Below, piece after piece: positions 45,001-51,000 of a DNA stretch of 64,000 bases. The DNA is from Perna viridis. Its lineage: Eukaryota. Each line of letters opens with the position of its first letter. The stretch's first letter is position 1. A program made the position numbers. The stretch is from the NCBI GenBank assembly GCA_037379345.1, contig CM074515.1, positions 49,481,743 to 49,545,742 on the forward strand, read 5' to 3'.

Positions 45001-48000
45001 AAAAAAAAGAATATTTCCTGTTAGAATTTTCCAGCCCTTATTCCAAGAAATGAGAAAGATGTCATTCTATTTAGAAGTCAGTAAAAACAAAGAATCTTTT
45101 ATAATGCTTAATATTTAAGATTTTTCTGAGTTCTTACTAACTGAAATTTTCTTTTGCAGAGAAGCTTCATCAAGTTCTTTCATTCTTGTTCTTCACCAAA
45201 TTGTTGCCTGACTAATTAGATCCCAGATACTGTGATTACTTTACAAAACCTAAAACAAATGATTCAAATGATGGATACCAATATGTGGTAATAGATAAAA
45301 GTATAAGCTTTCTTTATAATGTAATATCATTAAAGCAAATTTATCCTCTTCTGTTTGCATATGTTAAGTTGAACACTTTCTTAAACAATTAAGATTAAAT
45401 TTGAGACAGATTTATAAAAAGATGCTAGAAATCTTTCCAAAAAAATATGATTTTCACAGTTAATGTGAGAATTCTCATGTTTGCCCAAATCTCATTTATG
45501 GCAGTTGAAATCCCTTATTTCATTATTCTGTTATTTTATCGCCGCGGCAATATATGTTAGACTTATCACGGTTAGGAAATATATAGAGTTACGGTTATTT
45601 ACATAAATTGAATTCTGGGACATCACCAAACATCCGGAATGGTGGTATGTGACTAATTAATACTTTCGCAATATTTACGGTACTTTTTAATGTACAAAAT
45701 TCTAACTGGCAAAAATTTTCACGATTGATGAGTTTCATGTCAACCAAGTAACAAATCCATACTCTCATATTGGTGCAGTAGAAAACAAAGGGGAATAACT
45801 CTAAATTATCATTTCTCAAACATAAAATACTGTGGAAATCAAAATGTCCCTATATTCTGGCAGGACGTCTTTCAATCATGCATTAATTTGACAAGAAAAA
45901 TTAAAATTACCTATAAACTGTACAATTGATATTCTTTCTGTGTACTGTTTGATGTAAACTTCTTCGACAGACAGCTATGCAAGAACAAATTCTGTATAGT
46001 TGATTCTACTCCGCGGCCAGTCTACTCCGCGGCCATTTTACACTGCAGCAAGCATAGTGATGACGTCCAATCCGCAGCGCGCATAGTGATGACATCAAAT
46101 CTGCAGCGAGCATAATAAGGGTTTTTGTTTAGATGACTCAATTCTGCAGCCAGTATAGCAAGGAGTAAATCTGTAAAATGACTTCCTTCTGCGGCCAACA
46201 AATAAATGTTGATTTCAAATAAGACGACTGCATTCTGCGGCCAGTATAGCAAGAACGACTCCTGCAAAGTTAACTCCATTCCGCGGCCAGCTTGACAAAG
46301 ATAGTTTCTGCAATACTGATTCTATTTCGAAGACAGTGAATGGAAGATTTCTGAAAAAATAACCAAATAATCAGCATCTTTAACAAACAAATAGTATATA
46401 AAATGTAGAGGAAGTCTCCATTTGATGCTTGCTTCTTGCTGTGCTTTCCAAATTAAAATTAAATTTAAGTTCAGAAGTACACAACGTGCGCGGACAGCAC
46501 ATGCGCATGCGTGAAGTCCATGAAATCGTGACGGTCAACCCTTAACTTCCAATTTAAGACATCATCCTGTACAATAATTATTCAAAGCCTTAACACTTGA
46601 CGGCAGACATATGCGCATGCGTAAATGACCCCTGTACATAATTTCCAGACATAAGTTATTTTGTACATTTTTCAAGAGGGAAAGTTTATCAGTGCACCAA
46701 TACTTGAGTTGTTTAAAAATTTTCAAATATAGTCTTCGTATTTTAACTACAATTTGAAACTTGAAAGCAAAGATTTCTACAGGTACAAATCTTTATTGTT
46801 GTACAGCTAAGTAAGTAAAAACTACCTTTCAATTCAAATGTGCAAGTTTCTCAATCTTTTGGTTAAAATTCAAAACCATTTTGAAAATACAAAATCCTTA
46901 ATAGTTTACAAATATCCTTTCAAATAAGAATACAAGACACTAATGTGCCTTAGTTTAGAACACGATAACATCCACAAAATTTCAAATTCAAAATTTTGTA
47001 ATTTCAAAGAAGAAAAATGTTTCAAAATTATACAGAAAATCATGCGGCCGCGTGATGTCCGCCTGAAACTGAAACACAAGAGCTTAAGGGTACATACCGC
47101 ATGTCCGTGATCTACAACAGGCGTTCCCCAAACGCCATCCCAGACAAAACAGTGCGATATCTTAAGATGACGCGAAAGATGTTAACCTTAAGCAGAAGTG
47201 CGCAGGCGTGCATGTCGGCAAAAGCATTTTTTGAAGGAAGAAATTTCAAACTGAGAAAAATTTTCAATCCATAAGAATTTCAGTAGTTTGAACTTGAAGA
47301 CTGAGAAGTCCAAAGTAAAAAGAAAAAATGCAACTAACATTATACTTACATTCAAAAGTTCAAAGAAAATCGAGCTGAATGCGCAGACGCGTCACCTCTG
47401 TTCAAGAATTTGTCCACCCCATTTTTAGAATTTTAAAGAAATATTCATAGAAATCCATACAAAATTTAGGAAACAAAAATACCATCCAATTATTAAGTTG
47501 TTATTAATATCCATGCCACCTGTATAAGGTCATATGCATCCCATCTTAAGTCAATAGCCCAAGAAGTTACAACTCGAGACACAAGATGTTAAGCCATGTC
47601 TGGAAAACGTGTCTTTGCATAAAGCGCATGCGTACTTGTAACAAACATCTTCTACCAATGCAATGGAATGCACAAATTTTGAAAATAAAAAAAAATTGTC
47701 TGTGTGCAAGTAAATTAATTCAGTGACGCTATATACGGTGCATGCGCATTGCCCTTTTTGACCTTTCAAAAAAAAAAAAAATCATCTTAAAAATCTAAGA
47801 AATGTATACTTTCATGTAGTAAGTTCTTAAAAAAAAAAATTCTCCTACATAGATAAAAAAAAAAACAGAAATATTTCAAAACTTCTACTATCTGAATGAA
47901 CCTCTTAGTTTTTAAAAGGAATAACAGGGCGTCATGAACGAAATCGAGACTTTCATCATCCGCCATTATTGTCTCAATACCTATCACATCGCAAATGTAT

Positions 48001-51000
48001 TTTCAAAAATCCTTAAAAAAACATTATGTTTTAAAAATTATGTATAAAATACAAGTTCTTACTAACCACATGTATTAACTATTCCAAACTCCTTTTCAGT
48101 AAAGACAATTGAGAAAACAACACATGCCATGACCATGAAACTTCTCTTTCCAGACAACCAAGATGGCGACCGATGGTGACTACCGCCAGAATGAATGTGA
48201 CCTTTGGCGGGAAACTTGCAACAATGCGATGGATCTTCACTCTAATCTTAACCTAAAAAGAGAAGAAACAAGTTCTAAGAATAACAGGTTCTGTGAAATT
48301 TTTTTTAAAATTCAGCCATGTTGAATACAGGGTGAAAAATCGCTATGCCACGAGGACTCAAACAAGAGTCAGGTGAATTAGGGCAGAACATTTTGATTTG
48401 TCAAAATGAATTATAATAATACTTAAAAACATGTTCTACTATAATCCATGCAAACAATCAAGACAGAAACAAAAACGTGCAGTACTAACAAGCAACCATG
48501 ATGAATTTTTAAAATGCTCCCATGACATACCTAGTGACGTATTTTAAACTACAGTCTGAATACTCTTTTCATCGGGTCGATTCAAAGACATGTTTTGTCT
48601 GTCTGGTTTAAAAATAGTTCAAGAACATGTAGAATATTTACCTATCCTTGTGCATTAACGATACACTTCAGCGCCCACCAATGTGCATTTAATATGTGCA
48701 ATCAAATACAGATGATGGTGCACTTCCATTGGGGGAACAAATACAACATGTCTCCTTCAACACATACAATTAGTTATGCAGTTCACACTGATAATGGCAC
48801 AAATACATCCATATACGTGTTTCAATTAACATAGTAAATCCTTATGAAAATGACACAAAAACAGCTCTGTAAGACACAAAAGCATATCAAAAATCTATGG
48901 TCATCAAGCAGACCTTCGAAAAAACTCTCCAGTTCTTTCCCGCCTACTGCTTTTGCGCCAATATTATTGGGTTGTGGCATGACACACAAAATTTATCTCC
49001 TTGATATATATACCTAAATTTGTGATGCACACAGTGCAAATACAGATGCATAAGATGCAGAAAGGCGCATGCGCTTTCATAATCACTCTACAGAATTTTA
49101 AATTTCACTCTGTCTTCCACTTTAAATAGTAAAAAACACCTAGAATTACCATTTAACTCTTACGTCAGCAAAAAATATCCAGCACAAACTTTATTCAAGC
49201 ACACACCATCATACATTTTTGTCCGCCATATTGCTTTCTTTCCCTCACATGTTCTAATGCTTCAGTATCAAATTTTCTCATTGGTCCTTTTTTTTTTAAC
49301 ATATCATTAAAATAACATGGGAAAACAACCCTTATTTTTAAAGGCAAATTTCAATAGAAATTCTTAGAATTTCAGCAAAATGGCTTCTACTTATACATAC
49401 AGACATACATTACGCCTCATGTTCAGTACATACATTTACTAAAGTAAGCAAGTTTTAAAATACACAACAGTCCATGTTAAGAGTCCTATTGAATGACACA
49501 TTTTGCATTTAAACATATCGTTGAGCATGTTAATGCATCACTAAACTTTATGTTAAGGAAAGAAAAGACCAACCTAAATGCACTTGATATATTTCCTCAA
49601 CTTTCACAGGTTGCATGCATGAAGGGGAAACGACTCTTACCAGCTTAGAGAGGAGACCGCCATTAAAACTAAGTAGGGCGGGCTAACAAGCAAGTAAAAA
49701 GAGAAGGTATGATGTCATTAGATTAGACTGTGTCTGGTTTGTATGTAAAATAGATGAGGAACAGTACAAAGACACACCTCGTTAATCACACAATGTACAA
49801 AATCTGCCATTAGTGAGTCAAACATGGTAGGTAGAGAAATAATCAATATTATAAATGTAGACATCTAAGATCAAGACAACACAAAGGCTATACATGAAAC
49901 ATTGAATATAAAAATACCCTACCCTCTGCCTGGCCTCTATACTTGACATGTTTAAAAAGAAATAAAGTAGGTGCATTAAAATGCTGTCTCGTCACACTAT
50001 TACACAGTGGTGCATACACACAAGTCCCGCCAGAACAAATCTCAGGTCATCATGCACAGCAAATAAAGGATTTTAAATCCATCATTTCTATTGGAGGTTA
50101 AAAATGAGGCGACACACCCATACTGGATAAATACCACCATTGGTTCGTTGATATAACATGCAGCAGAATAGATAAAAATTATACTTGCCGTCAAATCATA
50201 CTTAGGTGATATGCACTAATCCTGATAGTTATTTTCCAGCTGAGGATAGAGGCGACCTTACAAATCTAAGATGTGAAAAATCTGCGCACACTATCACAAA
50301 CTACAGAATACAGGAATCTGATTTGAGCTTACTGACCTTCTTGATAAAAGAGTTCATATCCAAGGGTGATTTTTTATGCAGCTTGTATTTTTGGCGGGAA
50401 TTATTTTGGCGCGAAACTTGAAACGTAAGTTTTATGAAATTCTAAAAATTAATTTCATGGATTTGTTTCCAGAAGTGATTATTTTGTATATATTTTCTTT
50501 TATGGAATACATGAATTAATTACCAACCAGAAGACAATGGTCATCCAGTATGGTATTCTAGAATAAAAATTATTTCCTTTTGATATTTTTTATTTTATTA
50601 GATTCTAGACACAAAAATAGTTTCTGTTCCATTCTGCTTTTTTTCTTTTTAAATCTATCAAAACAAAATATACAGGAAAAACTGACATCATTTCCATTAG
50701 TTCATTTTTTATTGCAATTACTTTTTCCCTACTTAATGTATGTTAATTAAGTTTTCAAAAACAAGAGTTTTGAAAAAAAATCTTATAGTTGAATTTCAGA
50801 ATTCAAAATCATCTTTTCCAAGCTGTCCTCGGAAAATAAAGATATATTTTTGAAGATGGTTATACCAATTCTTTAAAGTATTATGTTAAGAAATGCACAA
50901 TCTCTATAGAAAAAAGAACACTAAAAACAGCTGAAATAAGCCAATTAGCTAAATAACAATCACTACACAAACACATCCATCATTTAATTCAGAAATAATA

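What the first reader, a model, noticed from the sequence alone, without database searches (positions are those of the whole stretch)
46480..50420. Array of alternative promoters/first exons: each minus-strand splice donor sits beside its own housekeeping-type motif set
Seen: in ~4 kb there are six NRF1-type GCGCA(T/G)GCG-like sites, four YY1-type ATGGCG sites and four E2F-type sites. They form apparent modules when read on the minus strand: E2F pair (50390-50416) then donor CA|GTAAGC (50332); GC-box (49676) > AATGGCGG (49657) > donor TG|GTAAGA (49640); CCAAT (49280) > TATGGCGG (49223) > donor AC|GTAAGA (49163); NRF1 (49065)/E2F (48936) > donor AG|GTAAAT (48641); NRF1-like (47380) > donor AT|GTAAGT (47349). 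Acceptors lie at 48253 (tttcttctctttttag) and 46351. Known: these are typical metazoan core-promoter motifs, and YY1 motifs often lie just downstream of the TSS. Inference: about five tandem promoters with different inputs (cell cycle via E2F, NRF1, CCAAT, Sp) feed one transcript, acting as a promoter switchboard.
Basis: partly seen in the sequence, partly recalled or inferred. Interest (0 to 1): 0.7.

Follow-up and report, generated by a model that had tools for sequence, protein, structure and literature searches.

The report
CpG-island-like promoter block with NRF1/YY1/E2F sites
This stretch is the one place in the window that has kept its CpGs and is packed with housekeeping-type promoter motifs, so it is very likely an ordinary unmethylated promoter region of an animal gene, but the idea of five separate promoters each with its own splice donor is not shown.

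Summary
The CpG-bearing motifs are far above chance. All 5 GCGCAKGCG loci and all 6 TGCGCA loci of the 64-kb window, and 5 of its 6 ATGGCG sites, lie in 46480-50420; none of 1000 dinucleotide shuffles reached these counts. The GC-box and CCAAT sites are at chance. The sites sit in the window's only CpG-non-depleted block: 45300-48750 has CpG o/e 0.82, a shoulder to about 50600 has 0.47, and the flanks have 0.21-0.26. The block is single-copy in the window, has no transposon-protein, Pfam or Rfam match, and no ORF with relatives.

The splice half of the claim is weak. GTAAG occurs at 1.5 per kb here against 1.2 per kb window-wide, and motif-to-donor pairing is not significant. One acceptor-like site (48253) and one donor-like site (49640) are unusually strong.

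Best reading: a germline-hypomethylated, CpG-island-like housekeeping or proliferation promoter region, probably with more than one initiation zone and mainly minus-strand transcription. A five-promoter switchboard remains untested because no transcript, methylation or related-genome data were available. Ordinary kind; moderate-to-low interest.

The parts
45300..48750 (.). Core of the CpG-non-depleted (CpG-island-like) block
   Evidence: CpG o/e 0.82, 82 CpGs, GC 34.1%. Flanks have o/e 0.26 (1-45299) and 0.21 (50601-64000). The highest o/e among 519 equal-sized windows outside the block is 0.55. CpGs are clustered: variance/mean 1.66, reached by 32 of 5000 random placements.
48751..50600 (.). 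Shoulder with partial CpG retention
   Evidence: CpG o/e 0.47 with 25 CpGs. 13 of the 25 lie inside the named E2F, NRF1, YY1, GC-box, TGCGCA or ACGTCA motifs.
46503..46621 (.). NRF1-type pair 1 (GCGCATGCGT at 46503 and 46613)
   Evidence: The flanks of the two sites are unrelated apart from the motif (D20, 30).
47200..47391 (.). NRF1-type pair 2 (GCGCAGGCG at 47200; TGCGCAGACGCG at 47380, overlapped at its end by a GCGTCA half-CRE)
   Evidence: It borders the densest CpG cluster, 47045-47216, with 14 CpGs.
47624..47748 (.). NRF1-type pair 3 (GCGCATGCGT at 47624; GCATGCGCA at 47740, with TGACGC at 47724)
49065..49074 (.). Isolated palindromic NRF1-type site GCGCATGCGC
48160..48214 (+). AAGATGGCG (YY1-type, + strand) followed by TTTGGCGGGAAA (E2F-type)
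   Evidence: It is the start of a 41-codon + strand ORF (48163-48285) that has no relatives.
47961..47966 (-). YY1-type site on the minus strand (AATAATGGCGG)
49224..49229 (-). YY1-type site on the minus strand (AATATGGCGG)
49658..49663 (-). YY1-type site on the minus strand (TTAATGGCGG)
48936..48944 (.). E2F-type site TTTCCCGCC
50390..50416 (.). Double E2F-type site (TTTGGCGGGAAT and TTTGGCGCGAAA, 15 bp apart) at the right edge of the block, where the A/T skew flips
50328..50332 (-).
   Evidence: Present. Crude PWM rank 328 of 3811 minus-strand GT sites.
49636..49640 (-).
   Evidence: Present. Rank 7 of 3811, the only clearly strong donor of the five.
49159..49163 (-).
   Evidence: Present. 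Rank 173 of 3811.
48636..48641 (-).
   Evidence: Present. Rank 168 of 3811.
47344..47349 (-).
   Evidence: Present. Rank 67 of 3811.
48253..48268 (-). Acceptor-like polypyrimidine tract plus AG
   Evidence: Present. Rank 1 of 3471 minus-strand AG sites by a crude PWM. On the + strand it overlaps the 48163 ORF.
46351..46366 (-). Acceptor-like site (TTATTTTTTCAG)
   Evidence: Present. Rank 73 of 3471.
50425..50430 (+). Donor-like GTAAGT on the + strand, 8 nt after the double E2F site and followed by T-rich DNA
   Evidence: rank 78 of 3127. This allows a + strand reading of the same E2F module.
45979..46340 (-). Degenerate minisatellite inside the block: about 8 units of 28-47 nt with the core CTGGCCGCRGAATG
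   Evidence: (D1-D3).

Best explanation
The finding is the right-hand two thirds of a roughly 5.3-kb block (45300-50600) that has escaped the CpG loss seen in the rest of the window.

I read it as DNA kept unmethylated in the germ line, that is, a CpG-island-like promoter region of an animal gene. It is AT-rich, so it qualifies by CpG o/e and not by G+C. The sites held there are of the housekeeping and proliferation class:
- three pairs of independent NRF1-type sites in the core (46.5-47.75 kb);
- YY1-type and E2F-type sites spread over 47.96-50.42 kb;
- a double E2F site at the far right edge.

Inferred mechanism: methylation-sensitive, chromatin-opening factors of the NRF1, YY1 and E2F classes bind these sites. 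They keep the block nucleosome-poor and unmethylated, and they set where RNA polymerase II starts. Given the spacing of the site clusters, initiation probably happens in more than one zone: at least the NRF1 core and the E2F pair about 3 kb away. Given the composition skew, transcription is mostly on the minus strand, possibly with divergent + strand transcripts.

Shown: the CpG retention, the motif enrichment, the independence of the sites, the single-copy status within the window and the absence of coding or RNA-family signal.

Inferred: the unmethylated state, factor binding, and the number and direction of start sites.
For: CpG retention:
- In 1-kb windows, CpG o/e is 0.88 and 1.01 at 46001-48000; the other 62 windows are at most 0.72 and mostly 0.04-0.4.
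- The fine profile puts the block at 45300-48750, with a shoulder to about 50550.
- Block o/e is 0.82, against 0.26 and 0.21 in the flanks and a maximum of 0.55 in 519 control windows.

Motifs:
- All GCGCAKGCG and all TGCGCA sites of the window, and 5 of 6 ATGGCG, lie in the region.
- 0 of 1000 dinucleotide shuffles reach the counts for GCGCAKGCG, ATGGCG or TTTSSCGC.
- An unbiased count of CpG-containing k-mers puts GCGCATGC and GGCGGGAA on top.
- The 7 NRF1-type sites share no flanking sequence: mean column identity 47% and no invariant column.
- In the decayed shoulder, 13 of 25 surviving CpGs are inside the named motifs.

Not a repeat, gene or RNA:
- No second copy of any part of 45000-51000 in the window by blastn at E<=1e-3.
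- None of 80 fetched proteins, mostly retroelement ones, hits the block by tblastn.
- 0 of the 36 ORFs of at least 50 aa in 45000-51000 has a Pfam match at E<=0.01.
- No Rfam match reaches a gathering score.

Strand: the + strand is A- and C-rich across 46800-50200 (AT skew 0.09-0.27), and the skew flips at 50200-50800, beside the E2F pair.

Literature:
- CGI-like unmethylated promoters with NRF1 and YY1 motifs are described in a non-vertebrate (PMC8286816, passages read).
- NRF1, E2F and SP1 sites are typical CGI promoter content (same paper).
- Chromatin-opening factors set start sites within CGIs, with secondary factor positions taking over (bioRxiv 10.64898/2026.05.04.722487, abstract read).
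Against: There is no direct evidence of transcription, of start sites or of methylation state.

No coding first exon could be tied to the block. The + strand ORF at 48163 and the 99-aa minus-strand ORF at 46025-46321 have no relatives, so the gene served is unknown.

G+C is only 34%, and no 200-bp window in the block meets the classical GC>=50% criterion.

The same strand skew continues to about 58 kb, upstream of the block. The block could therefore be intragenic rather than the 5' end of a gene.

A block 3.4-5.3 kb long with seven or more motif clusters is long for a single promoter.

Copy number in the whole genome could not be checked.
Confidence: 0.62

Rival explanations
1. About five tandem alternative promoters, each with its own untranslated first exon and minus-strand donor, splice to a common downstream acceptor (48253, 46351 or 24886). 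They act as a switchboard with different inputs.
For: All the sites exist. Three of the four minus-strand YY1-type sites are good AA(N)ATGGCGG matches, and two have a GTAAGA 18-61 nt downstream. The acceptor-like site at 48253 ranks 1 of 3471 and the donor at 49640 ranks 7 of 3811 by a crude PWM. The skew fits minus-strand transcription starting near 50.3 kb. A known precedent exists: the glucocorticoid-receptor CpG island holds seven alternative first exons with their promoters (PMC2602793, abstract seen in the search listing).
Against: GTAAG density is at background, 1.52 per kb against 1.17. Motif-to-donor pairing gives P = 0.05-0.26 depending on the window, and for the YY1 sites alone 2 of 4 with P = 0.08. 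Three of the five donors rank 168-328 of 3811. The GC-box and CCAAT 'inputs' are chance-level. Six of seven NRF1-type sites lie in the core, where the model has one module. The strong acceptor at 48253 overlaps a + strand YY1/E2F cluster, which can equally be read as promoter sequence.
Confidence: 0.12
2. Two or more separate transcription units share the block. For example, a minus-strand gene is driven by the NRF1 core, with its first exon running through the minisatellite to the donor-like site at 45910. A different transcript is driven by the E2F pair at 50.4 kb or the YY1/E2F cluster at 48.16-48.21 kb, possibly on the + strand. This would be a divergent or bidirectional arrangement.
For: The only + strand YY1-type site (AAGATGGCG at 48160) sits on an ATG, with an E2F site 40 nt on. 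A + strand GTAAGT lies 8 nt after the double E2F site and is followed by T-rich DNA, with a local skew flip at 50200-50800. NRF1, YY1, E2F and CCAAT sites are reported as enriched in bidirectional CGI promoters (PMC4730256, passages read). CpG o/e dips between the sub-blocks.
Against: The + strand ORF from 48163 has no N-terminal match among 1.84 billion representatives; its 2 hits are internal repeats of unrelated proteins. It also has no match among the longer proteins of the 5.8-billion set. Its donor-like site, GTTCTG at 48288, ranks 515 of 3127. To the right of 51 kb the skew again favours the minus strand.
Confidence: 0.18
3. The block is not a promoter. It could be an orphan or intragenic hypomethylated region such as an enhancer or a methylation valley. 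It could also be a young single-copy insertion or the interior of a non-autonomous transposon that has not yet lost its CpGs.
For: No gene could be attached to it. The minus-strand-type skew runs on both sides of the block, which would make it intragenic. Genome-wide copy number could not be tested.
Against: A young insertion does not explain why the CpGs are concentrated in NRF1, YY1 and E2F motifs, where 0 of 1000 shuffles match, or why 13 of 25 shoulder CpGs are in motifs. There are no terminal direct or inverted repeats longer than 30 nt around the block. There is no transposon-protein similarity and no second copy in 64 kb, whereas other repeats of this window do recur, for example 35344-35622 and 53543-54129.
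Confidence: 0.08

Closest known systems
Vertebrate-type CpG-island (non-methylated island) housekeeping promoters with NRF1, YY1, E2F and SP1 sites
   Same: A local escape from genome-wide CpG depletion, with dense methylation-sensitive NRF1, YY1 and E2F motifs, no TATA-centred architecture and a broad extent. PMC8286816 (passages read) names NRF1, E2F and SP1 as typical CGI promoter sites.
   Different: G+C is 34%, not 50% or more. The block is 3.4-5.3 kb long. Only one chance-level GC-box is present. The host genome has 31% G+C and carries an animal retroelement family. I do not take it for a vertebrate, but the organism was not identified.
CGI-like unmethylated promoters of heavily methylated non-vertebrates (Amphimedon) and of mosaic methylomes (Ciona, oyster)
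   Same: Unmethylated, CpG-retaining regions over start sites that carry NRF1 and YY1 motifs, as summarised in PMC8286816 (passages read). The window shows the same sequence footprint.
   Different: Methylation and start sites were measured there. Here both are only inferred from sequence.
Glucocorticoid receptor (NR3C1) CpG island with seven alternative first exons and promoters
   Different: There the first exons were mapped by cDNA and 5'-RACE. Here there is no transcript evidence, and the donor-like sites are at background density.
Bidirectional CpG-island promoters
   Same: The motif set (NRF-1, YY1, E2F, CCAAT) is reported as enriched in them (PMC4730256, passages read). YY1-type sites occur on both strands here.
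   Different: No pair of head-to-head genes could be shown, and the + strand ORF has no relatives.
E2F-driven cell-cycle promoters with paired or inverted E2F sites near the start site (recalled from memory: DHFR and E2F1 type)
   Same: TTTGGCGCGAAA, which reads TTTCGCGCCAAA on the other strand, and TTTGGCGGGAAT lie 15 bp apart at 50390-50416.
   Different: The resemblance is recalled, not tested. The distance to a start site is unknown.

Membership tests
Classical CpG island (criteria recalled: length >=200 bp, G+C >=50%, CpG o/e >=0.6) | CpG o/e >=0.6 over at least 200 bp | tested here: met
   o/e is 0.82 over 3451 bp (45300-48750). Most 300-bp windows there score 0.6-1.27.
Classical CpG island (criteria recalled: length >=200 bp, G+C >=50%, CpG o/e >=0.6) | G+C >=50% | tested here: not met
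   The block has G+C 34.1%. No 200-bp window in it reaches 50%; the only such windows in the whole 64 kb are at 18551-18841. I therefore call it CpG-island-like, not a classical CGI.
Non-methylated island / hypomethylated promoter region | Unmethylated in the germ line while the flanks are methylated | not testable with these tools
   Only the evolutionary footprint was seen: o/e 0.82 against 0.21-0.26.
Non-methylated island / hypomethylated promoter region | Overlaps a transcription start site | not testable with these tools
   No RNA or CAGE data were available. No coding first exon was identified.
NRF1/YY1/E2F housekeeping-type promoter | Motif sites enriched over a composition-matched expectation | tested here: met
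   GCGCAKGCG 6 against 0.01, ATGGCG 5 against 0.69 and TTTSSCGC 4 against 0.20. In each case 0 of 1000 dinucleotide shuffles reached the count.
NRF1/YY1/E2F housekeeping-type promoter | The factors actually bind, and the sites lie within about 100 bp of start sites | not testable with these tools
   This needs ChIP or CUT&RUN plus CAGE in the source organism.
Multi-first-exon CpG island (NR3C1-like promoter array) | Several distinct start-site clusters | not testable with these tools
   No transcript data. The motif clusters are spaced in a way that allows it.
Multi-first-exon CpG island (NR3C1-like promoter array) | Each first exon ends in a functional donor tied to its promoter | tested here: inconclusive
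   Donor-like density is at background. Pairing gives P = 0.05-0.26. One of the five donors is strong, rank 7 of 3811.
Multi-first-exon CpG island (NR3C1-like promoter array) | A common downstream acceptor | tested here: inconclusive
   The site at 48253 ranks 1 of 3471 AG sites by a crude PWM, 46351 ranks 73 and 24886 ranks 295. Whether any is used is unknown.
Bidirectional promoter | Two head-to-head genes with start sites close together | tested here: inconclusive
   The + strand ATG ORF 48163-48285 has no N-terminal relatives. A non-coding or lineage-specific + strand transcript is not excluded.
Transposon or high-copy repeat interior | Further copies, terminal repeats or transposon-protein similarity | tested here: not met
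   No second copy in the window. No long terminal repeats. No Pfam match and no tblastn match to the fetched retroelement proteins. Genome-wide copy number was not testable.

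The most novel reading that the evidence does not exclude
A non-vertebrate animal carries an NR3C1-like 'promoter array'. It would be one hypomethylated block of about 5 kb made of discrete, sequence-unrelated initiation modules: three NRF1-pair modules roughly 450-650 bp apart, YY1/E2F modules, and a double E2F site at the edge. 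Each module would respond to a different input, and all would feed one minus-strand transcript through the strongest acceptor-like site of the window (48253).
Probability: 0.1. Interest if true: 0.55.

Novelty: new member of a known kind. Interest (0 to 1): 0.3.

Why it matters
If the best reading holds, this is one more CpG-island-like promoter, useful mainly for annotation. It marks where a gene or several transcripts start in an otherwise exon-poor, repeat-rich 64 kb. It also shows that in this AT-rich, CpG-depleted genome promoters can be found from CpG o/e plus NRF1, YY1 and E2F motifs even though G+C never reaches 50%.

It adds a sequence-level example to the still thin record of CGI-like promoters with NRF1 and YY1 sites outside vertebrates.

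Only if several start-site clusters with separate inputs were shown would it become a notable case of an alternative-promoter array outside vertebrates.

Tried and rejected
1. Coding exons. All 257 stop-to-stop ORFs of at least 50 aa in the window were scanned against Pfam. None scored E<0.001. There were 5 weak hits (E 0.005-0.0095), all below the curated cut-offs and none in 45000-51000. ORFs under 50 aa (263 of 520 ORFs of at least 40 aa) were not scanned.

2. The + strand ATG ORF 48163-48285 as a first coding exon. phmmer against 1.84 billion representatives gave 2 hits, a 12-fold Kazal-repeat protein and another repeat protein. Both matched internally and their scores were inflated by summed repeats, so I judged them chance. 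The word-indexed search among longer proteins found none at E<=10.

3. The 99-aa minus-strand ORF over the minisatellite (46025-46321): no relative at E<=1 among proteins of 54-174 aa.

4. The 98-aa + strand ORF 48538-48831 in the ESM Atlas: best score 0.82, below the level where a hit counts as more than a lead.

5. Structured RNA. Rfam gave nothing at gathering scores for the whole window. In 44500-51500 it gave only two sub-threshold hits, E 0.16 and 0.96. There are no tRNAs. Folding the densest CpG cluster, 47035-47225, gave z = -1.79 and -1.43, which is unremarkable.

6. Repeat-unit origin of the NRF1 sites: rejected, because the flanks are unrelated.

7. A crude exon finder using splice PWMs built from recalled consensus values, plus an open frame and G+C filter, produced no convincing protein-coding exon anywhere in the window. 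CpG mini-clusters elsewhere were inspected in six frames and none looked coding.

8. Chaining the short ATG after the E2F pair on the minus strand (about 50360) to the three proposed acceptors. Read by eye, every continuation meets a stop. Spliced models were looked at exon by exon only, and the joined step was left out.

9. Naming the organism. The Atlas says only that the retroelement ORF's nearest clusters are eukaryotic.

10. Not usable or not used. Genome-wide copy number, conservation and transcripts therefore stayed unchecked.

Full report
WHAT THE WINDOW IS. The window is 64 kb with no N and 29-35% G+C in most 2-kb windows. CpG is strongly depleted almost everywhere: o/e is 0.04-0.4 in most 1-kb windows. 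It is rich in tandem repeats, with 45 TRF rows. It carries remnants of an animal retroelement. The ORF at 53576-53956 has 78 relatives, the longer of which carry RVT_1 or HTH_animal domains, and its nearest Atlas clusters are eukaryotic. A related piece lies at 35344-35622 on the other strand. I do not take the window for human. No Pfam family (257 ORFs of at least 50 aa), Rfam family or tRNA was found, so the window is exon-poor or its exons are short.

THE OBSERVATION.
- GCGCAKGCG occurs at 46503, 46613, 47200, 47624 and 49065 and nowhere else in the window. TGCGCA occurs at 6 loci, all in the region. ATGGCG occurs at 6 sites, 5 of them in the region: one on the + strand at 48163 and four on the minus strand. 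TTTSSCGC gives 4 of its 7 hits there.
- Against 1000 dinucleotide-preserving shuffles of the region itself, which keep its CpG content, the counts are 6 against 0.01, 5 against 0.69 and 4 against 0.20. None of the 1000 shuffles reaches them.
- GGGCGG (1 against 0.14; 133 of 1000) and CCAAT (11 against 10.6; 502 of 1000) are at chance.
- An unbiased count of CpG-containing k-mers gives the same picture: GCGCATGC and GGCGGGAA lead.
- The seven NRF1-type sites have unrelated flanks, so they are independent sites and not copies of a repeat unit.

THE SPLICE-SITE HALF. It does not stand out.
- Minus-strand GTAAG occurs 6 times in the region (1.52 per kb). The window has 75 on the minus strand (1.17 per kb) and 71 on the + strand.
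- The number of motif sites with a minus-strand GTRAG within 60-300 nt downstream is 3-8 of 17. Random placement gives 1.8-6.2, with P = 0.05-0.26. For the four minus-strand YY1-type sites it is 2 of 4 within 70 nt, P = 0.08.
- I scored sites with a crude position-weight matrix written from recalled consensus values. The donors rank 7 (49640), 67 (47349), 168, 173 and 328 of 3811.
- The acceptor-like site at 48253 is the best of 3471 in the window; 46351 ranks 73 and 24886 ranks 295.
- So one donor and one acceptor are notably good. The rest are what AT-rich DNA gives anyway.

WHAT IS REALLY THERE. The motifs sit in the only part of the window that has kept its CpGs.
- In 300-bp steps, o/e is 0.6-1.27 from about 45300 to 48750, with dips at 46651-46950 and 47251-47700. 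It is 0.2-0.75 from there to about 50550, and 0-0.3 just outside.
- The core block has o/e 0.82 and the shoulder 0.47. The flanks have 0.26 and 0.21, and the best of 519 equal-sized control windows has 0.55.
- G+C is only 34%, so the classical 50% criterion is not met. It is CpG-island-like by o/e alone.
- Within the core the CpGs are clustered: variance/mean 1.66, matched by 32 of 5000 random placements.
- The clusters coincide with three pairs of NRF1-type sites (46503/46613, 47200/47380, 47624/47740), several with TGACG half-sites beside them. TGACGY occurs 6 times against 1.8 expected, reached by 10 of 1000 shuffles.
- In the shoulder, 13 of the 25 surviving CpGs lie inside the named motifs. 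This is what selection on binding sites in partly decayed DNA would leave.
It holds a degenerate minisatellite of about eight 28-47-nt units with a conserved CTGGCCGCRGAATG core.

NOT A REPEAT, GENE OR RNA.
- No part of 45000-51000 recurs in the window, and there are no long terminal repeats.
- There is no similarity to the 80 fetched proteins. No Pfam hit occurs in its 36 ORFs of at least 50 aa.
- Rfam gives only two sub-threshold matches, and the densest CpG cluster has an unremarkable fold.
It has no credible relative. Of 1.84 billion representatives, only two repeat proteins match, internally. None matches in the word-indexed set of longer proteins.
- The 99-aa ORF over the minisatellite and the 98-aa ORF at 48538 are equally orphan.
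- These negatives are weak for short, lineage-specific first exons.

DIRECTION.
- The + strand is A- and C-rich over nearly all of 1-58000, and most strongly inside the block: AT skew 0.09-0.27 at 46800-50200, and GC skew down to -0.33 at 49000-49400.
- The skew vanishes at 44600-45800 and flips at 50200-50800, next to the double E2F site.
- By the general rule that the sense strand of transcribed animal DNA is T- and G-rich (recalled, not tested in this genome), this fits minus-strand transcription through the block from about 50.3 kb.
- Against a purely minus-strand picture, a + strand GTAAGT lies 8 nt beyond the E2F pair and is followed by T-rich DNA.

HOW IT MOST LIKELY WORKS. Factors of the NRF1, YY1 and E2F classes bind the clustered sites. 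They keep the block open and unmethylated and fix where polymerase II starts.
- This grammar is described for vertebrate CpG islands, where the dominant chromatin-opening factor sets the start site and a neighbouring factor position takes over if it is lost (bioRxiv 10.64898/2026.05.04.722487, abstract read).
- CGI-like unmethylated promoters with NRF1 and YY1 motifs are reported outside vertebrates (PMC8286816, passages read).
- The same motif set is typical of bidirectional CGI promoters (PMC4730256, passages read).
- The spacing of the clusters makes several initiation zones plausible.
- Nothing here shows five promoters, distinct inputs per promoter, or splicing from the five donors.

LIMITS. 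There was no eukaryotic DNA collection, RNA data or methylation data. Genome-wide copy number, conservation, start sites and junctions stayed unchecked. Consensus motifs, the classical CGI criteria, the skew rule, the DHFR-type E2F resemblance and the splice matrices are recalled knowledge, not tool results.

VERDICT. The motif cluster is real and marks a CpG-island-like promoter region, a known kind. The five-module switchboard is an untested over-reading. Interest is 0.3.

Noticed in passing
window 45979-46340 (minus strand): A degenerate minisatellite inside the CpG-rich block: about eight units of 46/46/45/47/29/29/28/46 nt. The core CTGGCCGCRGAATG is kept while the rest of each unit has diverged. 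From memory, one unit (CAGAATGCAGTCG) resembles a ZNF143/Staf site; this was not tested. It could be an array of binding sites.
   Followed up: partly
window 24806-24886 (minus strand): An exon-like piece: an acceptor-like site, an ATG opening a 15-codon frame, 5 CpGs in otherwise depleted DNA, and a stop directly before a GTAAGA. An alternative GTAGGT 4 nt upstream would keep the frame open. It may be the first coding exon of the minus-strand gene, but it is too short to search.
   Followed up: partly
window 53543-54260 (+) and 35257-35622 (-): Two remnants of one retroelement family. The ORF 53576-53956 has 78 relatives, the longer ones carrying RVT_1 or HTH_animal domains. They explain the secondary CpG o/e rise at 34-36 kb.
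   Followed up: yes
window 59876-61900: A satellite of 45 copies of a 44-bp unit, with 272- and 498-bp higher-order periods. It causes the reversal of GC and AT skew at 59-62 kb.
   Followed up: no
window 18395-18905, inside the 32-bp tandem array 18026-18393 / 18910-19090: A block of about 50% G+C with 20 CpGs interrupts a tandem array. It holds the only 200-bp windows of the whole 64 kb that meet the classical CpG-island criteria. It has no Rfam or Pfam match and looks like an inserted repeat element.
   Followed up: partly
window 12519-13016; 28681-29021; 41460-42174; 52172-52374; 57190-58250: Further tandem arrays with units of 62, 35, 54/89, 36 and 28 bp. Repeats make up a large share of this window.
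   Followed up: no
window 1-58000: The + strand is persistently A- and C-rich on both sides of the CpG-rich block. This suggests one very long minus-strand transcription unit, or two tandem ones, so the block may be intragenic.
   Followed up: partly
window 63001-64000: CpG o/e rises to 0.51 at the window's end. The window's only CCGGAAGT (ETS-type) site is at 63524, and an open-ended 134-aa + strand ORF runs from 63598. This may be the edge of another promoter or gene.
   Followed up: no
window 48163-48285 (+): The 41-aa ORF matches the Kazal-domain core (DG..Y..NEC.L....C) of a 12-repeat Kazal protein at 43% identity over 21 residues. The whole-protein E-value of 6.5e-10 comes from summing 12 weak repeat matches, so I judged it chance.
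   Followed up: yes
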